Part shown: positions 30,213 through 39,436 of the stretch, piece by piece
Layout of the letters: every line of letters starts with the position of its first letter
How positions within the stretch are numbered: the stretch's first letter is position 1
Assembly (NCBI GenBank): GCA_005885035.1
Contig: VAXZ01000113.1
Span: 1 to 48,115 of the forward strand
Source: Actinomycetota bacterium
GTDB taxonomy: Bacteria; Actinomycetota; UBA4738; HRBIN12
Reading direction: 5' to 3'
Length of the DNA stretch: 48,115 nucleotides
Notes under the pieces: generated by a model
What the model saw: only the letters and a program-made list of their open reading frames with translations
Told to the model about the DNA's origin: nothing
Databases searched by the model: none
Translations under genes and position numbers: made by a program

Positions 30213-32483
30213 GTGGACCCGCAGGCGTTCCTCGATCACCTGACCGCCGATCCCGAGGTCGACGGGTCGCTGGTGCACGTACAGGAACTCCCCGCACGAC
30301 CACCCCTCGTGCAGCCGTTCCCCGCGGGTTTCCCTGAGGTGCTGGTCGGACGCCTCGGCTTGCTCGGCATCGACGGGCTCTATCCGCACCAGGCCGAAGG
30401 ATTGGCGGCGCTGGCGGACGGGCGTGACGTGATGCTTGCCACCGGCACCGCCAGCGGCAAGTCGCTCGTGTACCAGGTGGCGTTCGCGCAGGCCGCGCTC
30501 ACGGTCCCCAAGGCCACCGCGCTGTTCCTGTTCCCGACGAAGGCCCTCGCGCGCGACCAGCTCCGGTCCGTCCGGTCGCTCAAGCTCCCGCAGCTCAAGG
30601 CCGCGGTGTACGACGGGGATACGCCGCGGGCGGAGCGCCCACTGATCCGGAGGACCGCGAACCTCGTGCTGACCAACCCCGACATGCTCCATGCGTCGCT
30701 GCTCCCCGATCACGCCCGGTGGGCCGACTTCTTCCTCCGCCTGTCGCTCGTGGTGATCGACGAGGCGCACGTGCTGCGCGGGGTCTTCGGCTCCCAGGTC
30801 GCGATGGTCCTGCGCCGGCTCCGGCGGCTGATCGCGGTGCACGGCGGCGAGCCGCGCTGGTGCCTCGCAACCGCCACCGTCGGGAACCCGGCAGAGCTCG
30901 CCGCTCGCCTCACCGGACTGCACGTCGAGGTCATCGAACGCGACGCCTCGCCGCGCGGCCGGAAGCTCTTCGCGCTCTGGAACCCGCCGGTGATCGATGA
31001 CGAGACCGGGGCGCGACGGAGCGCGCTGACCGAAGCGTCGTGGGCGATGGCCGGGCTCGTCGACCTTGGCGCGCGCACGATCGGGTTCACGCGGAGCCGG
31101 CGTGCTGCCGAGCTGCTCGCCGAGTTCACCCGTCGTGGGCTCTCCGACCCACGGATGCGAACACGGGTCAAGAGCTACCGGGCCGGCTACCTCGCCGAGG
31201 ACCGCCGCGCGATCGAGCGGCAGCTCGCGAACGGCGAGCTGCTCGCGGTCGCGTCCACGAGCGCGCTCGAGCTCGGGATGGACATCGGCTCGCTCGACGC
31301 CGCCGTGTTGACGGGCTATCCCGGGACCCGAGCGTCGATGTGGCAGCAAGCGGGCCGAGCGGGGCGTCGCGAGGCCGAGTCGCTCGCCATCCTCGTGGCG
31401 CAGGACGACCCGCTCGACCAGTACCTCGCGCAGCATCACGAGGAGCTGTTCGACCGGCCGGCCGAGGACGCCGTGATCGACCCGGGCAACCCGTACGTGA
31501 TGGGACCGCATCTGCGCTGCGCGGCAAGCGAGCTCCCCCTGACGCAGGACGACCTCGGCAGGTTCTTCGGTCCGGAGGCCGAGCCGTTGGTCGAGGAGCT
31601 GATCGCCGACGGTGCGCTCTCGCGACGGCAAGCCGGAACGCTGCACGACGTCGGCCGCGACTCCCCGCACCGTGAGGTCGACATCCGCGCCGGTTCCGGT
31701 CACGTCTACCGGATCGTGCTCCATGGGACCGGCGAGCTCCTCGGGACCTCCGACGAGCATCGGGCGTTCGGCACGCTGCATCCCGGAGCCGTCTACCTGC
31801 ATCAGGGTGAACAGTTCCTGGTGCAGGAGCTGAACCTCACGGACCGCGTCGCGGTCGTCACGGAAGCCGATCCCGACTTCTACACGCAGGCGCGCGACGT
31901 CACGGACATCCAGATCGTGGATGTCGTTCAACGTCGTCCGCTCGGTGGTGCCGAGGTGTGCTTCGGCGACGTGCGCGTGACGAACCAGGTCGTCGGCTAC
32001 GTCCGCAAGCTCGTCTCGACCAACGAGCTCGTCGGGGACCATCCGCTCGCGCTGCCGCCCGTGACCCTCGACACGCGGGCGACCTGGTGGACGCTCCCCG
32101 GCCGCCTCTTCCACGAGGCGGCGGTCGGCCCCCGCCAGCTCCCCGGCGCGATCCACGCCGCCGAGCACTGCGCGATCGGTCTCCTGCCGTTGGTCGCGAC
32201 GTGCGACCGGTGGGACGTCGGCGGCGTTTCGACGCCGATGCACGAGGACACCGGGCTCACCACGATCTTCGTCTACGACGGATACGAGGGAGGAGCCGGG
32301 GTCACCGAACGAGGGTTCCGGAACGTCGAACGGTGGTTGCACGCCACGCTGGAGCGGCTCCGTGAGTGCCCGTGCCGCGACGGTTGTCCCTCCTGCGTGC
32401 AATCGCCGAAGTGCGGCAACGGCAACGAGCCGCTGGACAAGGCAGCCGCCGCGGCGCTGCTCGCGGTCGTGCTCCGCGGTTGA
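30213..32483 (+). CDS. DEAD/DEAH-box helicase with C-terminal DUF1998 zinc module (MrfA/YprA/SftH-like)
   Basis: GTG 30213. Motif I ATGTASGKSL. Motif II VVIDEAHVLRG. Motif VI WQQAGRAGRR. C-terminal CPCRDGCPSCVQSPKCGNGNEPLDK. Confidence 0.9.
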   Translation: MDPQAFLDHLTADPEVDGSLVHVQELPARPPLVQPFPAGFPEVLVGRLGLLGIDGLYPHQAEGLAALADGRDVMLATGTASGKSLVYQVAFAQAALTVPKATALFLFPTKALARDQLRSVRSLKLPQLKAAVYDGDTPRAERPLIRRTANLVLTNPDMLHASLLPDHARWADFFLRLSLVVIDEAHVLRGVFGSQVAMVLRRLRRLIAVHGGEPRWCLATATVGNPAELAARLTGLHVEVIERDASPRGRKLFALWNPPVIDDETGARRSALTEASWAMAGLVDLGARTIGFTRSRRAAELLAEFTRRGLSDPRMRTRVKSYRAGYLAEDRRAIERQLANGELLAVASTSALELGMDIGSLDAAVLTGYPGTRASMWQQAGRAGRREAESLAILVAQDDPLDQYLAQHHEELFDRPAEDAVIDPGNPYVMGPHLRCAASELPLTQDDLGRFFGPEAEPLVEELIADGALSRRQAGTLHDVGRDSPHREVDIRAGSGHVYRIVLHGTGELLGTSDEHRAFGTLHPGAVYLHQGEQFLVQELNLTDRVAVVTEADPDFYTQARDVTDIQIVDVVQRRPLGGAEVCFGDVRVTNQVVGYVRKLVSTNELVGDHPLALPPVTLDTRATWWTLPGRLFHEAAVGPRQLPGAIHAAEHCAIGLLPLVATCDRWDVGGVSTPMHEDTGLTTIFVYDGYEGGAGVTERGFRNVERWLHATLERLRECPCRDGCPSCVQSPKCGNGNEPLDKAAAAALLAVVLRG

Positions 32484-32506
32484 CCGGCGCGGACTAGTCT
32501 GCGGCC

Positions 32507-33091
32507 GTGCGTCTCACGCCCACCGACGAAGATCGCCTCCGGATCTTCTCGGCAGCCGAGCTCGCCCGGCGGACGCTCGCCCGAGGTCTGCAGCTGAACG
32601 CGCCCGAGGCGATCGCGCTCGCCTGCGACGAGATGCACGCCGCGGCGCGCGGGGGTGCTTCGTACGAAGACGTCGTCCAAGCGGGACGTGTCGCGGTCGC
32701 GCCAGACCAGGTACTCGACGGCGTGGCCGACGTCGCGCCGGAGATCCGCTTGGAAGTCCTGCTCGACGAAGGCTCTCGTCTCGTCGTGATCCGCGCGCCG
32801 TTCGGCCCGCGTTCCGATGACGGACCCGGGGCCATGCGATTCGCCGAGGGCGACGTCTTGCTCGCTCCGGAGCGACCGCGCATCACGCTCACCGTCACCA
32901 ACACGTCGGAACGCCCGATCCGCGTCTCCTCGCACTTCCCGTTCGACGAGGCGAACGCGAAGCTGGCGTTCGATCGCGATGCCGCGCGCGGGTTCCGGCT
33001 GGACCTCCCCGCCGGGGATTCGTGGCGATGGGCCCCGGGCGAGACCCGCGACGTCGACCTGGTGCAGTTCGGGGGCTCGGCGGGTGCCTGA
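32507..33091 (+). CDS. ureAB: urease gamma-beta fusion subunit
   Basis: The N-terminal 100 aa, MRLTPTDEDRLRIFSAAELARRTLARGLQLNAPEAIAL..., resemble the gamma subunit. The C-terminal part, ITLTVTNTSERPIRVSSHFPFDEANAKLAFDRDAARGFRLDLPAGDSWRWAPGETRDVDLVQFGG, resembles the beta subunit. Confidence 0.9.
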   Translation: MRLTPTDEDRLRIFSAAELARRTLARGLQLNAPEAIALACDEMHAAARGGASYEDVVQAGRVAVAPDQVLDGVADVAPEIRLEVLLDEGSRLVVIRAPFGPRSDDGPGAMRFAEGDVLLAPERPRITLTVTNTSERPIRVSSHFPFDEANAKLAFDRDAARGFRLDLPAGDSWRWAPGETRDVDLVQFGGSAGA

Positions 33092-34781
33092 TCGCATCTC
33101 CAGGCAGGAACACGCGCTCCGACACGGACCCACGATCGGCGACCGGGTGCGACTGGGCGATACCGACCTCTGGATCCGGATCGAAGACGACCTGACCGAG
33201 CCCGCCGATCAAGTGCTCTGGGGCTACGCGAAGAACCTCCGCTCGCGGATGGGCCAGCACGATCGCGCGACGTCCGAGAGCGAGCTCGACGCCGTGATCG
33301 GTGGCGCGATCGTCGTCGATCCGCTGGTCGGGATCGTCAAGGCCGACGTCGGCATCAAGGACGGCCGCGTCGTGGGTATCGGCAGGGCCGGCAACCCGGA
33401 CATCATGGACGGCGTGGACCTGACGATCGGCCCCGGGACCTGGCCGATCCCTTGCCACGGCCTGCTCGTTACGCCCGGCGCGGTCGACTCGCACGTGCAT
33501 CTGCTGAGCCCCCGACTCGTTCCCGTCGCCCTGTCGGCAGGCGTCACCACCCTCGTGACGGCCGGGTTCGAGGAGCCCGCGTGGCGGATGATCCGCACCT
33601 TCGAGGCGTTCGAGCGCCTGCCGGTGAACCTCGGCTTGCAGGCCTCGGCCCGAACGGATGTCTCGGGGTCCGCCGAGCGTGCGATCTTGTCGGGCGCGAT
33701 CGGCCTGAAGGTCCACGAGGACTGGGGCGCCTCGGCGCAGATCGTCGACGCGACGCTCGCGACGGCCGAGGCCTTCGACGTCGCCGTCTGTCTGCACACC
33801 GACGGCCTCAACGAATCGGGCGAGCTGGAGGAGACGGTCGCCGCGATCGCCGGTCGGTCGGTCCACGCCTATCACGTCGAGGGCGCCGGCGGTGGACACA
33901 TCCCGGATCTGCTCGCGATCGTCCGCGAGCCGAACGTGATCTGCTCGTCGACGACGCCGAGCCTCCCGTACGGCCGGGCGACTGCCGCCGAGCATGTCGA
34001 CATGATCCAGATCGTCCACGAAGGGAACCCTTCGCTCCCAGAGGACGTGGCGGCCGCGCGCGAGCGGATCCACCCCAAAACGATGGCCGCGGAGGGGCCG
34101 CTGCACGAGCTCGGCGCGATCTCCATCGTGAACAGCGACTCGCAGGGCATGGGGCGGATCGGCGAGACGGTCCGCCGGACGTGGCAGCTCGCGCACGCGA
34201 TGAAGTCGTGGCGCGCGTCGGCGGCGGGGGAAGGATGGCCCGACGCGCTTCCCATCGAGGACGACGACAACCGACGGGTCCTCCGCTATCTGGCGAAGCA
34301 CACCGTCGAGCCGGCGAGGACCCACGGCCTCCACGAAGAGGTCGGATCCCTCGCACCCGGTCACCTGGCCGACCTGGTGCTGTGGGACCCGTCGTCCTTC
34401 GGCGCGAAGCCTCTCGCGGTGATGAAGGGCGGGGCCATCGCCTGGGGGCCGATCGGCGAGGGCAACGCCTCGGTCCACGGTTCGGAGCCGACCAGGTTCG
34501 GTCCCGACTGGGGCGGTACGGGCGACGCACCGCCTGGCCTCGCGGCCACCTTCGTGTCGGCTGCAGCCGTGGAGTCCGGCATCGCACACACCCTCCGAAC
34601 CCGCCGGCGGGTGGTCGCCGTCCGGGGGACGCGAGGGTTCCGGCGGACCGATCTGATCGCCAACACGGCCGTCCCGCCGATCGAGGTGTCGCGGACCGAC
34701 GGGGCCGTGACGCTCGACGGCCGAGAGCTCGCCGCGGAACCCGTCTCGAACGTCCCGCTCAGCCGGCGCTACTTCCTGTGA
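33084..34781 (+). CDS. ureC: urease alpha (catalytic) subunit, divergent
   Basis: GTG 33084 overlaps the ureAB stop (GTGCCTGA). Metal and catalytic motifs present: DSHVHLL, GLKVHEDWG, LHTDGLNESG, HVEGAGGGHIPD, NSDSQGMGRIGE, and the C-terminal RRYFL. The flap reads IVHEGNP instead of VCHHLDP. About 10 aa are missing after SAGVTTLV. Confidence 0.9.
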   Translation: MPDRISRQEHALRHGPTIGDRVRLGDTDLWIRIEDDLTEPADQVLWGYAKNLRSRMGQHDRATSESELDAVIGGAIVVDPLVGIVKADVGIKDGRVVGIGRAGNPDIMDGVDLTIGPGTWPIPCHGLLVTPGAVDSHVHLLSPRLVPVALSAGVTTLVTAGFEEPAWRMIRTFEAFERLPVNLGLQASARTDVSGSAERAILSGAIGLKVHEDWGASAQIVDATLATAEAFDVAVCLHTDGLNESGELEETVAAIAGRSVHAYHVEGAGGGHIPDLLAIVREPNVICSSTTPSLPYGRATAAEHVDMIQIVHEGNPSLPEDVAAARERIHPKTMAAEGPLHELGAISIVNSDSQGMGRIGETVRRTWQLAHAMKSWRASAAGEGWPDALPIEDDDNRRVLRYLAKHTVEPARTHGLHEEVGSLAPGHLADLVLWDPSSFGAKPLAVMKGGAIAWGPIGEGNASVHGSEPTRFGPDWGGTGDAPPGLAATFVSAAAVESGIAHTLRTRRRVVAVRGTRGFRRTDLIANTAVPPIEVSRTDGAVTLDGRELAAEPVSNVPLSRRYFL

Positions 34782-34865
34782 ACGATGCACTCGAAGTTCG
34801 GATCGACCCGCCACCGCGACCCATCCCTTGCACCACGAGGGCATCTTCGGCCAGACTCTGCCGAT

Positions 34866-35927
34866 ATGTCCGCTGAGAGGGGAGTCGGCGAGATCGACGT
34901 CGGCTCGGTGGAGCTACTCGGCGTCACGAAGCGCTTCGGGACGGTGACCGCGGTCGACGCGATCGATATCCAGGTTCGTCCCGGCGAGTTCCTCTCGCTC
35001 CTCGGGCCATCCGGGTGCGGCAAGACGACCACGCTTCGGATGCTCGCGGGGTTCGAGGATCCGGACGAGGGCGAGATCCGGATCTCGGGTCGGGCGGTCC
35101 AAGGCGTCCCGCCACACCGGCGCGACGTGAACACCGTGTTCCAGAACTATGCGCTCTTCCCCCACATGTCTGTCTCGGAGAACGTCGCCTACGGCCTCCG
35201 CCAGAAGAAGACGGACAAGACCGAGATCGGGCGGCGGGTGGGCGAGGCGCTCGAAATGGTGAAGATGAGCAGGCTCGCGAACCGCAAACCGCGGGAGATG
35301 TCCGGCGGGCAGCAACAGCGGGTGGCGCTCGCCCGGGCGCTGGTGAACCGGCCGAGCCTCTTGCTGCTCGACGAGCCCCTCGGCGCGCTCGATCGCAAGC
35401 TCCGCGAGGAGATGCAGATCGAGCTGAAGCTGCTGCAGTCCCAGGTCGGCATCACGTTCATCTTCGTTACGCACGACCAAGACGAGGCCCTGTCGATGAG
35501 CGATCGGATCGCGGTGATGTTGGACGGGCGGGTCGAGCAGCTCGCCGACCCGGACACGGTCTACGATCACCCGAGGTCTGCGTTCGTCGCGGGGTTCATC
35601 GGGAAACAGAACTTCTTCGAAGGCACGTCGCGCGACGGGGGCTCCATCGTCGAGGGGGATGGATGGACCTTCCGTACTTCGCTCGTTCCAATCGGCGCCG
35701 TGGATGGGCACGCCGCGCTCGCCGACGTGATCCAGTTCGTCGTGCTCACACCCGGTCGCAAGGAGGTCATCGCCCGACTCCCGCGCCCGGACGCTCCGCG
35801 TCTGGACGTCGGTGGGCGAGTGTGGTGCTCGTGGGAGGCGGATCACACCCACGTGTTCGGGGCAGAGCAAGCCGAGATCGTGCTCGCCGACCCGGCGAGC
35901 GATGAAGCCGCGGCGATCGCTGGTTGA
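34866..35927 (+). CDS. ABC transporter ATP-binding protein (PotA/spermidine-putrescine type)
   Basis: ATG 34866. Motifs: LLGPSGCGKTT, MSGGQQQRVALARAL, LLLLDEPLGALD, FVTHDQDEA. It has a C-terminal regulatory extension. Confidence 0.9.
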   Translation: MSAERGVGEIDVGSVELLGVTKRFGTVTAVDAIDIQVRPGEFLSLLGPSGCGKTTTLRMLAGFEDPDEGEIRISGRAVQGVPPHRRDVNTVFQNYALFPHMSVSENVAYGLRQKKTDKTEIGRRVGEALEMVKMSRLANRKPREMSGGQQQRVALARALVNRPSLLLLDEPLGALDRKLREEMQIELKLLQSQVGITFIFVTHDQDEALSMSDRIAVMLDGRVEQLADPDTVYDHPRSAFVAGFIGKQNFFEGTSRDGGSIVEGDGWTFRTSLVPIGAVDGHAALADVIQFVVLTPGRKEVIARLPRPDAPRLDVGGRVWCSWEADHTHVFGAEQAEIVLADPASDEAAAIAG

Positions 35928-35962
35928 GGCGGTATCGAGGCAGTACGAGAGGAGGAGACTTG

Positions 35963-37135
35963 ATGAGCGATTCAGATGAGGGTCTGAAGATCCTGGCGTC
36001 GGTGGAAAGCGCTCAACGGATCAGTCGGCGCGCGTTCATGGGCGGATCCGTCGTAGCGGCATTCTCGGGGAGCATCTTGTTGTCGGCATGCAGCACCAGC
36101 ACAGGCGGTGCCGCGAGCTCGGGCGCCGCATCCCCGACCCTCGAGGATCAGCTGGAATTCTTCCACTGGGCTCAGTACGACGACCCGAAGCTCTTCAAGA
36201 AGTTCACCAACGAACTGGGACCCGTTACCCACATCGACACCTACACGTCGAACGAGAACGCGATCACGAAGCTGGTGGCCGCGCAGGGCAGCAGCGGGTA
36301 CGACATCGTGGTGCCGACCGGCCCGTACATCCCGCAGATGGTCGCGAACAACCTGCTCCAGGAGCTCGACCTGTCCAAGATCCCGAACTTCCAGAACCTC
36401 GAAACCGTATTCACGAACCAGCCCTGGGATCCCGGCAACAAGCATTCGGTCTGCAAGGACTGGGGAACGGTCGGATGGATCGTCGACAAGAGCCAGATCT
36501 CGACACCGATCAACACCTGGAAGGACTTCATCAACGTCGCGATGACCGAGGCGAGCGGGAACGTCTCCCTGCTCGATGCCCAGAACGAAGTCATGGGCGT
36601 CTACTTCTGGGCGAACGGGATCGACTGGACGACCACGAACCCTGCGGACCTCGACGCGTACGAGGCGTGGACCCTCCAGATGGCGCCGCACGTCAAAGCG
36701 TTCGAGTCGTACCCCGGCTACCAATTCGCTCAATTGGGATACGGGTTATCGCACGTGTGGAACGGTGACGCCCGGCAGGGGTTCAACTCGTTCAAGGATC
36801 CGAGCCGCTATGCCTGGGGCCTCGGCTCGCCCAACACCGAGCTCTGGATGGACAACTGGACCATCGTGCAGGGCGCCCCGCACCCCGAAGCGGCGTACGC
36901 GTTCATCAACTTCATCCTCGATCCGAAGAACTCGCTGCAGGACCTGGCGTTCCACGGCTACAACACCGGGATCACGGGGGTGAAGGAGGCTGCCCAGGCA
37001 GCCGGGATCCCCTACCTGGACATGATCTTCTTCGACCCCGCTCAGCTCGCCACGATGCATGCGCAGGAGATCAACTCGGCGTTCGACCGCGAAGTGCAGA
37101 TCTTCCTGAACATGAAGAACGCCGCGGGCGCATAG
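35963..37135 (+). CDS. extracellular solute-binding lipoprotein (PotD/PotF-like) with Tat-type signal
   Basis: ATG 35963 after GAGGAGGAG. SRRAFMGGSVVAAFSGSILLSAC (twin-Arg motif plus lipobox Cys). The body resembles polyamine-binding proteins (YDIVVPTGPYIPQM, WGTVGW). Confidence 0.85.
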   Translation: MSDSDEGLKILASVESAQRISRRAFMGGSVVAAFSGSILLSACSTSTGGAASSGAASPTLEDQLEFFHWAQYDDPKLFKKFTNELGPVTHIDTYTSNENAITKLVAAQGSSGYDIVVPTGPYIPQMVANNLLQELDLSKIPNFQNLETVFTNQPWDPGNKHSVCKDWGTVGWIVDKSQISTPINTWKDFINVAMTEASGNVSLLDAQNEVMGVYFWANGIDWTTTNPADLDAYEAWTLQMAPHVKAFESYPGYQFAQLGYGLSHVWNGDARQGFNSFKDPSRYAWGLGSPNTELWMDNWTIVQGAPHPEAAYAFINFILDPKNSLQDLAFHGYNTGITGVKEAAQAAGIPYLDMIFFDPAQLATMHAQEINSAFDREVQIFLNMKNAAGA

Positions 37136-37143
37136 GTTCGAAG

Positions 37144-38082
37144 GTGGCCCAGCGGGTAGCGGCGTCCGAACGCGGTGCCCGGAGGATCCGGGCACCGCGG
37201 TTCGTCATGGCGCTCCCCGCGTGGGTCTGGTTCCTGTCCTTCTTCACGCTGCCGGTGTTGTGGATCGTCTACTACTCGTTCGGCTACAAACCGGACATCT
37301 ACCACCCCATCGCGACCGACAAGCTCTCGCTGCATTCGTACCACGAAGCGTTCTCACGGGCGTTCGTGCACGTCTTCTCGCAGACACTGCAGATCTCGAT
37401 CATCGGCACGACCCTGTGCTTGCTGATCGGCTTCCCGTTCGCCTATTGGCTCGCGACACGAGTGTCACCTCGATGGCGAGGTGTTCTGCTCGGACTGGTG
37501 GTGGTGCCGTTCTTCGTGAACTTCCTGGTTCGCACGGTTGGCTGGCTCATCCTCTTGTCGCCAGCCGGCCCCGTCTCGAGTCTCCTGCAACGTTGGGGGG
37601 TCCGCAGCGAGCCGCTGCACCTGTTGCAAACCCGGGGAGCCGTCCAACTCGGCGTCGTCTACAACTACCTGGCGCTCATGATCCTGCCTCTCTTCGTGAC
37701 GCTCGACCGGCTGGATCCCGCGATGCGCGAGGCATCGAAGGACCTCGGCGCGAACCGCGCGAAGACCTTCCGCCAGATCACCCTTCCGCTGGCGGCTCCC
37801 GGCATCGTCGCCGGGTTGCTCCTGGTCTTCATCCCGCTGACCGGCGACTACATCACCGCATTGGTGCTGGGGGGTGCGAAAGGGAACATGGCCGGCGTCG
37901 TGGTCGCGAGTCAGTTCACGGTCGCGCAGGACTGGGCGCTCGGAGCGGCGCAGGCGGTGATCCTGATCGCCATGATCATGGGGACGGTCGCCGTGTTCGG
38001 TCTGTTCGCACTCGCGATCCGCACGATCGTCCGAGCGAGCCGCAGGATCACGCTCCCGCCGGTCGCGGAGGAGGCCGTGTGA
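37144..38082 (+). CDS. ABC transporter permease (PotB-like)
   Basis: GTG 37144. Six TM helices. EAA-loop region DPAMREASKDLGANRAKTFRQITLPLAAPG. Confidence 0.85.
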   Translation: MAQRVAASERGARRIRAPRFVMALPAWVWFLSFFTLPVLWIVYYSFGYKPDIYHPIATDKLSLHSYHEAFSRAFVHVFSQTLQISIIGTTLCLLIGFPFAYWLATRVSPRWRGVLLGLVVVPFFVNFLVRTVGWLILLSPAGPVSSLLQRWGVRSEPLHLLQTRGAVQLGVVYNYLALMILPLFVTLDRLDPAMREASKDLGANRAKTFRQITLPLAAPGIVAGLLLVFIPLTGDYITALVLGGAKGNMAGVVVASQFTVAQDWALGAAQAVILIAMIMGTVAVFGLFALAIRTIVRASRRITLPPVAEEAV

Positions 38083-38963
38083 GCGCCGTCGGAGCCGGCA
38101 GGAAAGGGCGTCGCCGGGACCTTGCCGACGTCGGGCTCCGTTCATGGGCGATCATCGTGTACGTGTTCCTTTTCCTTCCGATCCTCGTGATCGTCGTGTA
38201 CTCGTTCAACAATGGCCGGGCGATGATCACGTGGAACGGCGTCGGATTGAACGGTTATCGGACGGGCTTGACCGATCCCACCATCCGGGACGCGGTGAAG
38301 ACCTCGATCGTTGCGGCCGTGGGGACCGCCCTCATCGCGACCATCCTCGGGTCGTTCGCCGGGATCGCTTTGGCCAGGCGCAAGGGCAAGTGGACGATCT
38401 TGTTCTTGGCACTCGTGTTCCTGATCCTCGTGACACCCGAGATCGTCGAGGCCATCGCGCTCCTCCTCTGGTACGTCCGTCTCGGCGGACCATTCGGACC
38501 ACACACGCCCATCCCCGGCATCAGCTATGGGATGGTCCGCTTATGGGTAGGTCACTCATTGTTCGCGACGGCGGTCGTCACACTGATCGTCCGAGCGCGA
38601 CTCCAGGGGCTCGATGAGACGCTGGAGGAGGCGGCCGCCGATCTGTATGCCACGCCCGCGCGGAGGTTCCGACAGGTCACGCTCCCCCTCATGCTCCCCG
38701 CCGTGCTTGCCGGCGCCCTCCTCGCCTTCAGCTTCAGCCTCGACGACACGATCATCTCGTCGTTCGTGAGCGTTGCCGGTGCATCGCCGTGGCCGGTGTA
38801 CGTGTTCAGCGCGGTCCGCAACGCCCTTCGACCCGAGGTCGCCTCCGTGTCGACGCTCCTGCTGATGCTGACCTTGATCGCCATCGCGTCCGTGGCGCTC
38901 GTCCTGCGTCGGAGCGGTCAATCGAGCAAGGACGTCGCCAAGACGATGACGGTGGGTGGCTGA
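38079..38963 (+). CDS. ABC transporter permease (PotC-like)
   Basis: GTG 38079, in frame within ORF 37221..38963, overlaps the upstream stop by 4 nt. IVYVFLFLPILVIVVYSF. EAA loop DETLEEAAADLYATPARRFRQVTLPLMLPA. Confidence 0.85.
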   Translation: MSAVGAGRKGRRRDLADVGLRSWAIIVYVFLFLPILVIVVYSFNNGRAMITWNGVGLNGYRTGLTDPTIRDAVKTSIVAAVGTALIATILGSFAGIALARRKGKWTILFLALVFLILVTPEIVEAIALLLWYVRLGGPFGPHTPIPGISYGMVRLWVGHSLFATAVVTLIVRARLQGLDETLEEAAADLYATPARRFRQVTLPLMLPAVLAGALLAFSFSLDDTIISSFVSVAGASPWPVYVFSAVRNALRPEVASVSTLLLMLTLIAIASVALVLRRSGQSSKDVAKTMTVGG

Positions 38964-39018
38964 GCGCTCGCGCCGACCGCCGGCCGCTGCGCCCCGAACC
39001 GCTGAGATACTCGGGACC

Positions 39019-39375
39019 ATGAACACGCCGCCGTACGTCGCGGTGATCGGGGCGAGCAACGCCACGGAGTGGGAGCTGGCATCGGCCGAGCGTGTGGGGC
39101 AGTTGCTCGCGGAGGCGGGATACGTGCTCGTGTGTGGAGGGCTCGGGGGGGTGATGGATGCCGCCGCCCGCGGCTCCGCCGCGGGCGGCGGCATCTCGAT
39201 CGGCATCCTCCCGGACAACGAGCGCGACTCCGCGTCGCGTCACCTGACCGTGGCGATCGCGACCGGCTTCGGTGAGGCGCGCAACGTGATCGTCGCGCGG
39301 AGCGCCGACGCCGTGATCGCGGTCGGCGGTGACGCGGTCACGCAGCTCCGCCGGCTGCTCCCGCAGATGTCGTAG
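39019..39375 (+). CDS. TIGR00725/LOG-like Rossmann protein, apparently C-terminally truncated (possible pseudogene)
   Basis: ATG 39019. The sequence is YVAVIGASNA...VLVCGGLGGVMDAAARGSAAGGGISIGILP...ADAVIAVGG. The expected GxGTxxE motif and the last third of the fold are then replaced by DAVTQLRRLLPQMS and a stop. Confidence 0.5.
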   Translation: MNTPPYVAVIGASNATEWELASAERVGQLLAEAGYVLVCGGLGGVMDAAARGSAAGGGISIGILPDNERDSASRHLTVAIATGFGEARNVIVARSADAVIAVGGDAVTQLRRLLPQMS

Positions 39376-39436
39376 GGCTCACGGGGTTGACCAGGGTGCC
39401 GTCCGAGCGCACCATCGGGTCGTGTTCGACACCCCC

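What the first reader, a model, noticed from the sequence alone, without database searches (positions are those of the whole stretch)
32507..34781. Minimal two-gene urease (fused gamma-beta plus divergent alpha) with no accessory genes, between a helicase and a polyamine-type ABC importer
ureAB starts 23 nt after the helicase stop. ureC overlaps ureAB by 8 nt. A PotABCD-like transporter follows 85 nt later. No ureD/E/F/G or nickel transporter lies within about 15 kb on either side.

The alpha subunit keeps the metal ligands, the carbamylated Lys and the catalytic residues (HVHL, GLKVHEDWG, LHTD, HVEGAGGGH, SDSQGMGR). It differs from canonical enzymes in two ways:
- The mobile flap reads IVHEGNP instead of VCHHLDP.
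- About 10 residues are missing after SAGVTTLV, where canonical enzymes have GGGTGPAxGTxATT.

Established: nickel ureases normally need UreDEFG for maturation, whereas the iron-containing second urease of Helicobacter mustelae matures without them. Inference: this may be an accessory-independent or otherwise atypical urease, or a urease-fold amidohydrolase acting on a related substrate imported by the adjacent ABC system.
Basis: partly seen in the sequence, partly recalled or inferred. Interest (0 to 1): 0.55.

Follow-up and report, generated by a model that had tools for sequence, protein, structure and literature searches.

The report
Helper-free urease relative with remodelled pocket
These two genes encode a urease-shaped metal enzyme from a large, untested actinobacterial branch that has no nickel-loading helper genes and a rebuilt substrate pocket; its relatives sit in operons with agmatine deiminase, so it probably removes the carbamoyl group from N-carbamoylputrescine-type amines rather than splitting urea.

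Summary
A fused gamma-beta gene (32507-33091) overlaps a 565-aa alpha gene (33084-34781) by 8 nt, and a PotABCD-type importer follows.

- **No helper genes.** UreD, UreE, UreF and UreG are not found in this 87%-complete genome. UreG is not found in any of 151 sampled genomes of the order, 53 of which carry this enzyme.
- **Active site.** All six metal ligands and the catalytic His/Asp/Arg are invariant. An 11-residue deletion removes the loop that carries a urea-binding carbonyl (K. aerogenes Ala167). Ala363 is Gly, the flap is rewritten, and several new Glu residues appear.
- **Phylogeny.** The protein lies in a strongly supported "short-loop" superclade that also holds the Streptomyces ure(AB)C-only paralogues (SCO5525/6 type).
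- **Context in relatives.** Agmatine deiminase (aguA) abuts the pair in several lineages, including cultured Streptomycetaceae. Of 40 aguA-bearing genomes, 36 carry the enzyme, and two of the four exceptions carry a canonical aguB next to aguA.

Best reading (about 0.45): an accessory-free N-carbamoylputrescine-type amidohydrolase.

Caveat: this genome and its closest kin lack aguA, so the substrate would have to be imported. A self-maturing true urease remains a live rival.

The scan reached the same reading before on other DNA. No paper found describes it.

The parts
32495..32500 (+). TAGTCT box 6 nt upstream of the ureAB GTG; a possible -10 element of a leaderless transcript
Evidence: Read directly from the sequence. 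The consensus sigma-70 scan found nothing here. This is inference only.
32507..33091 (+). Fused gamma-beta small subunit (194 aa) of the urease-like enzyme
   Evidence: - Pfam: Urease_gamma at residues 1-98 and Urease_beta at 107-191.
- NCBIfam: NF009671 bifunctional gamma/beta scores 215.9 bits, below the 243 cut-off.
- Best solved relatives are the fused Helicobacter UreA chains.
- dN/dS is 0.16-0.20 against L002 and L003.
33084..34781 (+). Alpha (catalytic) subunit of the urease-like enzyme, 565 aa
   Evidence: - Pfam: Urease_alpha plus Amidohydro_1.
- NCBIfam: TIGR01792 scores 598.5 bits, below the 680 equivalog cut-off. Only the subfamily model NF009686 passes.
- All metal ligands and catalytic residues are invariant in the clade.
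- AF2 model: pLDDT 88, pTM 0.93.
- Foldseek: TM 0.94 to K. aerogenes urease alpha.
- dN/dS is 0.12-0.15.
33558..33581 (+). Shortened active-site loop TAGFEEPA (alpha residues 159-166). It replaces the 19-residue canonical GGGTGPAxGTxATTxTPGP loop.
   Evidence: - Alignments show an 11-residue deletion, invariant in all 25 clade members examined.
- The deleted part holds K. aerogenes Ala167 (S. pasteurii Ala170). Its carbonyl H-bonds the Ni(2)-bound urea nitrogen (PMC7433671).
- Numbering was checked against anchor residues.
34011..34031 (+). Rewritten mobile-flap motif IVHEGNP (alpha residues 310-316)
   Evidence::
- Cys319 is replaced by Val.
- His320 is kept.
- His321 is replaced by Glu (Gly in a subclade).
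- Leu322 is replaced by Gly.
34866..35927 (+). PotA-like ABC ATPase (a longer ORF starts at 34785)
   Evidence: - Pfam: ABC_tran plus TOBE_2.
- NCBIfam: TIGR01187 potA scores 357.9 bits, over the 355.6 cut-off.
- The start at 34866 fits the model's N-terminus.
- The same cassette follows the urease-like pair in L002, L003, L011 and L017.
35924..37135 (+). PotD/PotF-like substrate-binding lipoprotein with a Tat signal (SRRAF) and a lipobox (LLSAC)
   Evidence: - Pfam: SBP_bac_8.
- Best solved relatives are spermidine/putrescine-binding proteins 4eqb, 7xjm and 1pot.
- The N-terminus was read.
37144..38082 (+). PotB-like permease
   Evidence: BPD_transp_1. Best NCBIfam match is PotB at 197.8 bits, below the cut-off.
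38079..38963 (+). PotC-like permease
   Evidence: BPD_transp_1 (within the longer ORF). Best NCBIfam match is PotC at 185.4 bits, below the cut-off.

Best explanation
**What is shown.** The two genes encode a catalytically intact member of a distinct "short-loop" branch of the urease family.
- It has a fused gamma-beta subunit plus an alpha subunit.
- It has a carbamylated-Lys-bridged dimetal site.
- It occurs without any UreDEFG helper genes (none found in the genomes that carry it), so it must mature without them.

**What is inferred.** Its substrate is not free urea but an N-substituted urea with a cationic tail, most likely N-carbamoylputrescine or a related N-carbamoyl polyamine.
- It would hydrolyse this to the amine, CO2 and NH3.
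- That is the job done elsewhere by the unrelated AguB (N-carbamoylputrescine amidohydrolase), downstream of agmatine deiminase.
- The deletion of the Ala167 loop, Ala363 to Gly and Leu322 to Gly would open the pocket on the Ni(2) side.
- The new Glu residues (alpha 163, 164, 313, 327) would bind the distal ammonium group.

**In this genome.** Agmatine deiminase was not found. The adjacent PotABCD-type importer would therefore supply the substrate from outside, as a nitrogen and polyamine source.

**Not determinable here.** The metal (Ni inserted without chaperones, or Fe/Mn/Zn/Co).
For: 1. **Accessory-free.**
   - UreG, UreD, UreF and UreE are not found in the own genome.
   - UreG is not found in 5 further clade genomes.
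   - UreG is over its cut-off in 0 of 151 genomes of the order, 53 of which hold the enzyme. Among high-quality genomes, 42 of 91 matched the UreC-like query (a count that may include G049's 51% homologue).
2. **An active enzyme under selection.**
   - All 6 ligands plus His219, Asp221 and His320 are invariant in 25 clade members. Arg336 is kept in 22 of 25.
   - dN/dS is 0.12-0.20.
   - The urease fold is predicted with confidence.
3. **Urea-binding elements are lost or changed throughout the clade.**
   - The 11-residue deletion removes Ala167 (S. pasteurii Ala170).
   - Ala363 is Gly, Thr273 is Val, and the flap is rewritten.
   - There are 24 class-specific substitutions, including new Glu residues.
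   - The role of Ala170 and Ala366 is taken from PMC7433671.
   - The protein scores below NCBIfam's urease-alpha equivalog cut-off.
4. **Operon link to agmatine deiminase.**
   - The order aguA-ure(AB)-ureC, with 0-13 nt gaps, occurs in L008, L009 and L015.
   - The two genes are adjacent in at least 7 sampled genomes from 6 genera and 3 families (coordinates).
   - In the wider superclade, aguA follows ureC by 21 and 31 nt in Streptomyces silvisoli and Kitasatospora saccharophila.
   - SCO5527, next to SCO5525-6, is listed as a homologue of a gene of the Pseudomonas arginine decarboxylase (agmatine) pathway (PMC3293853). That it is the aguA step is my inference from the order of the list.
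5. **Co-distribution.**
   - 36 of 40 aguA-bearing genomes have the enzyme.
   - The match is exact in genera g6, g7, g8 and g11 and in families f7 and f8 (10 genomes carry both, none is discordant among 71).
   - Two of the four aguA-bearing genomes without the enzyme (G014, G146) carry a true aguB over its cut-off, right beside aguA.
6. **Same signature.** The aguA-operon member L008 has the same loop and flap motifs as the window protein.
7. **No urea importer.** UrtA is over its cut-off in 0 of 151 genomes.
Against: - The own genome and its nearest kin (G124, G125, G001) have no aguA. In all, 17 of 53 enzyme-bearing genomes lack it. For this window the pathway logic therefore needs an imported substrate, for which there is no direct evidence.
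- The Pot cassette adjoins the pair only in the closest relatives.
- Every residue known to be needed for urea hydrolysis except the Ala167 loop is kept, so urease activity is not excluded.
- All 13 sampled genomes of the genus carry an agmatinase-family (urea-releasing) enzyme, which would give a true urease a job.
- Many aguA-bearing genomes (for example genus g9) also hold a CN-hydrolase scoring about 260 bits against the aguB model (cut-off 410). That protein might serve as AguB.
- The co-occurrence counts are not corrected for shared ancestry.
- No biochemical data exist for any member.
Confidence: 0.45

Rival explanations
1. It is a genuine urease that matures without UreDEFG, by spontaneous Ni insertion or with another metal such as Fe. 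It would recycle urea released inside the cell, for example by the agmatinase-family ureohydrolase.
For: - All metal ligands and His219, Asp221, His320 and Arg336 are retained.
- The fold is almost identical to K. aerogenes urease (TM 0.94).
- An agmatinase-family gene is present in 13 of 13 genus genomes, including the own genome at C117:5428-6282.
- From my own knowledge, not tested here: Bacillus subtilis urease (ureABC only) and Helicobacter mustelae UreA2B2 are accessory-independent ureases. 3qga is among the matches.
Against: - The loop carrying the Ala167 carbonyl is deleted and Ala363 is Gly. Both are urea-binding elements.
- The operon partner in several lineages is agmatine deiminase, which releases no urea.
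- G113 has the agmatinase-family gene but not the enzyme.
- No UrtA-type urea importer was found.
- The protein is not specifically related to the H. mustelae enzyme.
Confidence: 0.28
2. It hydrolyses some other small amide, guanidine or acyl-amine that the Pot-like system brings in. It may work together with the YtcJ-like (Amidohydro_3) enzyme that adjoins it in many relatives. On this view the aguA link is secondary.
For: - A YtcJ-like amidohydrolase (PF07969) lies next to the pair in at least 16 genomes of genera g1, g3 and g19.
- 17 of 53 enzyme-bearing genomes have no aguA.
- The AguA homologues score below the agmatine-deiminase equivalog cut-off (302-326 bits against 381.8), so their own substrate may differ from agmatine. 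AIH homologues act on other guanidino-polyamines (PMC13625781).
Against: - The YtcJ-like gene occurs with and without aguA, and also in genomes lacking the enzyme, so it does not track the enzyme.
- The own genome has only a 53%-identical paralogue of it, on another contig.
- Whatever AguA-type deiminases act on, their product is an N-carbamoyl compound. That still points to ureido-group hydrolysis.
Confidence: 0.22
3. It is a decaying or non-catalytic remnant of a urease operon that lost its accessory genes.
For: Several relatives show split or stop-containing copies: G009, G053, G059, G111 and G118.
Against: - The catalytic residues are invariant across 63-96% identical homologues.
- dN/dS is 0.12-0.20.
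- The gene is conserved in 48 of 79 genomes of the family.
- The broken copies may be assembly errors, as an earlier finding (e1-1241867) suggests. I did not check this.
Confidence: 0.03

Closest known systems
Streptomyces coelicolor SCO5525-SCO5526 and S. avermitilis 'ure(AB)C-only' clusters (noted in PMC2492869; function never tested)
   Same: - Fused gamma-beta plus alpha, with no adjacent accessory genes.
- The same short-loop superclade (SH-aLRT 100, using the Streptomyces/Kitasatospora paralogues L099-L102).
- Shared Ala363 to Gly and Thr273 to Val/Ile changes, and an altered flap that keeps His320.
- aguA is adjacent in S. silvisoli and Kitasatospora.
   Different: - The window clade has an 11-residue loop deletion; the Streptomyces types have 4.
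- Identity to them is only 46-47%.
- Streptomyces also carries a canonical urease, presumably with its UreFGD genes (not checked here), so helpers could act in trans there. In the window's order none was found.
- I did not have the SCO5526 sequence itself. Its place is inferred from other Streptomycetaceae.
Canonical Ni-urease UreABC with UreDEFG (K. aerogenes 2KAU/1FWJ, S. pasteurii 4UBP, H. pylori 1E9Y)
   Same: - The same fold (TM 0.94, rmsd 2.2 Å, 44% identity).
- The same six metal ligands and the same catalytic His/Asp/Arg.
   Different: - No helper genes.
- The Ala167 loop is deleted, Ala363 is Gly, and the flap reads VHEGN where the canonical enzyme has CHHL(D/N).
- 24 class-specific substitutions.
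- The score is below the equivalog cut-off.
AguB / NCPAH, N-carbamoylputrescine amidohydrolase (CN-hydrolase fold; P. aeruginosa)
   Same: - The proposed reaction and pathway position, downstream of agmatine deiminase.
- Complementary occurrence: true aguB sits next to aguA in G014 and G146, which lack the urease-like enzyme.
   Different: There is no homology. AguB is a Cys-Glu-Lys nitrilase-superfamily enzyme without metals. The likeness is functional and inferred.
Helicobacter mustelae UreA2B2 iron urease (3QGA)
   Same: - A fused small subunit.
- Works without accessory proteins (established knowledge).
   Different: - No closer in sequence than Ni-ureases (462 against 513 bits).
- It keeps the canonical urea pocket as far as I know.
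- It is a real urease.
- The metal of the window enzyme is unknown.

Membership tests
Ni-urease (EC 3.5.1.5), UreABC | Urease alpha fold with the N-terminal Urease_alpha domain, plus gamma and beta subunits | tested here: met
   Pfam PF00449, PF01979, PF00547 and PF00699. Foldseek TM 0.94 to 2KAU chain C.
Ni-urease (EC 3.5.1.5), UreABC | Dimetal ligands His134, His136, carbamylated Lys217, His246, His272 and Asp360, plus catalytic His219, Asp221, His320 and Arg336 | tested here: met
   All are present in the window protein. All are invariant in 25 clade members, except Arg336 (22 of 25). Carbamylation itself cannot be tested here.
Ni-urease (EC 3.5.1.5), UreABC | Urea-binding backbone carbonyls of Ala167 (loop GTxATT) and Ala363 | tested here: not met
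   The Ala167 loop is deleted (11 residues) and Ala363 is Gly in all clade members. Their role is taken from PMC7433671.
Ni-urease (EC 3.5.1.5), UreABC | UreD/F/G(/E) maturation genes in the genome | tested here: not met
   None in the own genome. UreG is over its cut-off in 0 of 151 genomes of the order and in 0 of 5 further clade genomes. The own genome is only 86.8% complete, but 42 high-quality genomes matched the UreC-like query (a count that may include G049's 51% homologue) and also lack UreG.
Ni-urease (EC 3.5.1.5), UreABC | Score over the NCBIfam urease-alpha equivalog cut-off (TIGR01792, 680 bits) | tested here: not met
   598.5 bits. Only the subfamily model NF009686 passes.
Ni-urease (EC 3.5.1.5), UreABC | Urea hydrolysis and nickel content | not testable with these tools
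   Needs an enzyme assay and metal analysis.
Short-loop ure(AB)C-only clade (SCO5525/6 type) | Fused gamma-beta gene directly before alpha, with no adjacent accessory genes | tested here: met
   The same layout is seen in L099-L102.
Short-loop ure(AB)C-only clade (SCO5525/6 type) | Shortened active-site loop, Ala363 to Gly, altered flap with His320 kept | tested here: met
   The window clade has the longest deletion (11 residues against 4).
Short-loop ure(AB)C-only clade (SCO5525/6 type) | Phylogenetic placement inside the superclade | tested here: met
   SH-aLRT is 100 for the superclade and 100 for the window clade in two quick IQ-TREE runs. No bootstrap or AU test was run.
Short-loop ure(AB)C-only clade (SCO5525/6 type) | Agmatine deiminase gene adjacent, or present in the genome | tested here: not met
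   Not in the window and not found in G000. It is met in many relatives.
AguB / N-carbamoylputrescine amidohydrolase (CN-hydrolase) | CN-hydrolase fold matching TIGR03381 | tested here: not met
   The window proteins are urease-family. The claim is only that the enzyme works like AguB, not that it is a member.
Helicobacter mustelae-type iron urease | Specific sequence relationship to UreB2, and iron in the site | tested here: inconclusive
   3qga_C scores 462 bits, lower than K. aerogenes urease at 513 bits. It was not placed in the tree because no sequence reference was available. The metal cannot be tested.

The most novel reading that the evidence does not exclude
The urease fold has been repurposed, across a large part of the Actinomycetota (including the long-known but untested Streptomyces SCO5525/6 "second urease"), into a chaperone-free and possibly non-nickel N-carbamoylputrescine / N-carbamoyl-polyamine amidohydrolase. 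This enzyme replaces AguB in the agmatine deiminase pathway. In this genome it is coupled to a dedicated PotABCD-type importer that scavenges carbamoylated polyamines from soil.
Probability: 0.4. Interest if true: 0.75.

Novelty: new variant of a known kind. Interest (0 to 1): 0.58.

Why it matters
- **Annotation.** Thousands of metagenomic and genomic proteins are annotated "urease subunit alpha", and ureC is used as a marker of ureolysis in soil and water. If this branch does not split urea, those inferences are wrong for a widespread group of soil Actinomycetota.
- **Enzymology.** It would be the first urease-family enzyme with a different physiological substrate. It would also be a natural case of a urease-type dimetal site assembled without UreDEFG.
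- **Polyamine metabolism.** It would fill the missing AguB step in genomes that have agmatine deiminase only.
- **Testability.** The idea can be tested directly in Streptomyces coelicolor (SCO5525-5527).

Tried and rejected
I worked out neighbourhoods with my own ORF calls plus Pfam.
- **Literature searches.** I looked for accessory-free actinobacterial ureases, for urease-like N-carbamoylputrescine hydrolases and for orphan ureases. They gave only the 2008 note on ure(AB)C-only clusters (PMC2492869) and the SCO5527 pathway listing (PMC3293853). No functional study turned up.
- **Consensus promoter and terminator scan** of 30.0-39.5 kb: no sigma-70 promoter-like site, and two terminator-like sites where shuffles give 3.1 on average.
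- **UrtA urea importer.** None is over its cut-off in the order. This is weak evidence, because urea can enter by other routes.
- **YtcJ-like amidohydrolase as a stand-in for AguA.** Rejected: it occurs with and without aguA, and in genomes lacking the enzyme.
- **Pot cassette as a general partner.** Rejected: it is adjacent only in relatives at least 81% identical.
- **Not placed in the tree** for lack of a sequence reference: the H. mustelae UreB2 and SCO5526 sequences.
- **Not searched:** putrescine carbamoyltransferase and NikABCDE.
Full report
**1. What is in the window**

- The helicase (DEAD/Helicase_C/MrfA Zn-binding domains) ends at 32483.
- A 194-aa fused gamma-beta protein starts with GTG at 32507, 23 nt later.
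- A 565-aa alpha subunit starts with GTG at 33084 and overlaps the ureAB stop by 8 nt.
- A PotA-like ATPase follows 84 nt after the alpha stop (ATG 34866; a longer ORF from 34785 also exists).
- Next come a Tat-lipoprotein PotD-like binding protein and two permeases.

Pfam finds Urease_gamma plus Urease_beta in the small protein and Urease_alpha plus Amidohydro_1 in the large one. NCBIfam scores the alpha subunit at 598.5 bits against the urease-alpha equivalog model, whose cut-off is 680. Only a subfamily model passes.

**2. Differences from canonical ureases**

The differences are real and fixed in a clade.
- Against K. aerogenes urease there is one 11-residue gap after ...VTTLVTAGF, and the flap reads IVHEGNP.
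- I aligned 25 clade members with 63 canonical UreC sequences. All six metal ligands and His219, Asp221 and His320 are invariant in both sets. Arg336 is kept in 22 of 25 clade members.
- The clade always has the deletion (TAGF/EEP[AP]), Thr273 to Val, and Ala363 to Gly. Nearly always it has Cys319 to Val and Leu322 to Gly, and His321 is always Glu or Gly.
- A systematic scan gives 24 class-specific substitutions. These include new Glu residues at alpha 163 and 327. Glu164 and Glu313 also lie in the new loop and the flap.
- Numbering from the anchor residues puts K. aerogenes Ala167 (S. pasteurii Ala170) inside the deleted stretch.
- The review PMC7433671 states that the carbonyls of Ala170 and Ala366 hold the Ni(2)-bound urea nitrogen.

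So two of the elements that define the urea pocket are removed or changed, while the chemistry of the dimetal site is kept.

The AF2 model is confident (pLDDT 88, pTM 0.93). It superposes on K. aerogenes urease alpha with TM 0.94. The next fold class, the hydantoinases, is below TM 0.5. Both genes are under purifying selection, with dN/dS of 0.12-0.20 against two relatives.

**3. No helper genes**

- UreG, UreD, UreF and UreE are not found in the window's genome, which is 2.5 Mb in 166 contigs and 86.8% complete.
- Because that genome is incomplete, I also searched relatives. UreG is not found in five other clade genomes.
- UreG is over its cut-off in none of 151 sampled genomes of the order. 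The enzyme is present in 53 of them: 48 of 79 in the window's family. Among high-quality genomes, 42 of 91 matched the UreC-like query, a count that may include G049's 51% homologue.
- HupE/UreJ is not found. One weak NicO-family match lies on another contig.

**4. Phylogenetic placement**

- Close relatives (63-96% identity) are all uncultured Actinomycetota MAGs, plus one bin labelled Dormiibacterota. The best canonical ureases reach only 41-47% in that scan. The intermediates at 49-62% in the representative search are other members of this clade or of the short-loop superclade.
- In two IQ-TREE runs the clade is monophyletic (SH-aLRT 100). It lies inside a short-loop superclade (SH-aLRT 100) together with other divergent metagenomic groups that have a 4-residue deletion.
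- Streptomyces fractus, S. silvisoli and Kitasatospora saccharophila carry fused-gamma-beta paralogues of this superclade beside their canonical ureases.
- These correspond to the ure(AB)C-only clusters noted for S. coelicolor (SCO5525-6) and S. avermitilis in PMC2492869. I found no functional study of them.

**5. Genomic context in relatives**

The Pot cassette follows the pair only in the nearest relatives, L002, L003, L011 and L017. Further out, two partners recur.

*Agmatine deiminase (AguA).*
- A PAD_porph/agmatine-deiminase homologue (PF04371, about 350 bits) recurs. Its TIGR03380 score is 302-326 bits, below the 381.8 cut-off.
- It lies immediately upstream of the pair in L008, L009 and L015 (gaps of 0-13 nt) and nearby in L018.
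- Coordinates show adjacency in at least seven sampled genomes of six genera and three families.
- In S. silvisoli and K. saccharophila, aguA follows the short-loop ureC by 21 and 31 nt.
- PMC3293853 lists SCO5527 among the S. coelicolor homologues of the Pseudomonas arginine decarboxylase (agmatine) pathway. That it is the aguA step is my inference from the order of the list.

*YtcJ-like amidohydrolase.* An Amidohydro_3 protein adjoins the pair in at least 16 genomes of genera g1, g3 and g19. It also occurs without the enzyme.

**6. Co-distribution in the 151-genome sample**

| | enzyme present | enzyme absent |
|---|---|---|
| aguA present | 36 | 4 |
| aguA absent | 17 | 94 |

- Fisher p is 2e-17, not corrected for shared ancestry.
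- More telling is that the same genomes carry both genes in genera g6 (3 of 6), g7, g8 and g11 (1 of 7) and in families f7 (3 of 27) and f8 (1 of 27).
- Of the four aguA-bearing genomes without the enzyme, G014 and G146 have a canonical aguB (TIGR03381 over its cut-off) directly beside aguA.
- This is the pattern expected for non-orthologous displacement of AguB.

G146 and G153 are flagged as unpublished. G146 is one of the two aguB cases and G153 is one of the 36. Other flagged genomes enter only the denominators.

**7. Interpretation**

AguA makes N-carbamoylputrescine, an N-substituted urea with a cationic tail. The known next steps are AguB or putrescine carbamoyltransferase (PMC13625781 and PMC9397018).

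A urease-type dimetal hydrolase fits that step if it has an opened pocket on the Ni(2) side and new acidic residues. The aguA-operon member L008 has exactly the same loop and flap motifs as the window protein, so the same specificity is likely.

I reached this reading, before I looked at earlier notes of the scan. Those notes show that the scan found the same clade several times on other DNA, and that follow-up agents proposed the same function. They are not independent evidence.

**8. Caveats for this window**

- AguA was not found in the own genome or in its nearest kin G124 (96% identical UreC), G125 and G001. The slightly more distant Pot-linked genomes G003 and G005 have aguA 50-60 kb away.
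- The substrate here would therefore have to come through the Pot-like importer. That is conjecture.
- The genus has no SpeA-type arginine decarboxylase (0 of 13). All 13 genomes have an agmatinase-family enzyme, which releases urea. This keeps the true-urease rival alive.
- Many aguA-bearing genomes also hold a CN-hydrolase scoring about 260 bits against the aguB model.
- The metal cannot be inferred.

**9. Verdict**

The locus is a new variant of a known kind: a urease-family enzyme that is probably accessory-free and has a changed substrate. It is of moderate to high interest, is not yet backed by biochemistry, and has already been met several times in this scan.

Noticed in passing
window 32495-32500: A TAGTCT box lies exactly 6 nt before the ureAB GTG, with no Shine-Dalgarno sequence. 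This is the same TANNNT-6 nt-start layout that another note reported for the potassium-regulon genes of this window. It suggests a leaderless transcript that starts at ureAB rather than read-through from the helicase gene.
   Followed up: partly
window 35924-37135: The PotD-like binding protein has a twin-arginine signal (SRRAF) followed by a lipobox (LLSAC). Its true start is probably the ATG at 35963, not the TTG at 35924.
   Followed up: partly
window 36001-38000: GC content drops to 0.63 over potD/potB, against 0.67-0.73 elsewhere. Within the window's genus there are two different UreC-like lineages. One is Pot-linked and 82-96% identical to copies in genus g5. The other is 72-75% identical and often adjoins the YtcJ-like amidohydrolase gene. 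The ure-pot cassette may have moved laterally between genera.
   Followed up: no
G009:C3:533321-535053; G111:C5:493346-495011; G118:C4:29659-30785; G053:C6:35255-36923; G059:C132:3382-5139: In several relatives the alpha gene appears split, frameshifted or interrupted by a TGA codon. This could be real decay or a consensus error of long-read assemblies, as an earlier finding (e1-1241867) suggests.
   Followed up: no
L013:9551-11242 and 15 or more other genomes: A YtcJ-like/COG1574 Amidohydro_3 protein of about 560 aa sits convergent or divergent to the urease-like pair in genera g1, g3 and g19. Its function is unknown. A roughly 50%-identical housekeeping paralogue is present in most genomes of the order.
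   Followed up: partly
L104 and L105 (Streptomyces fractus, G156:C2): This one Streptomyces genome has three UreC homologues: one canonical and two different short-loop types. One short-loop pair lies next to a class IV aminotransferase. The other lies next to an MFS transporter and a PucR-type regulator.
   Followed up: partly
G000:C117:5428-6282: An agmatinase-family ureohydrolase (TIGR01230, 191.5 bits, over its cut-off) is present in the own genome and in all 12 other sampled genomes of the genus. No SpeA-type arginine decarboxylase was found in any of them.
   Followed up: partly
window 38956-39436: The small LOG/TIGR00725-like ORF after potC ends prematurely, as another note on this window already says. 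I saw no link to the urease-like genes.
   Followed up: no
L009, L010, L014, L015: In one subclade (flap AVHGGS) the window's fused gamma-beta protein matches over only about 100 residues. The gamma and beta parts may therefore be separate genes there, or the beta part may be strongly diverged.
   Followed up: no
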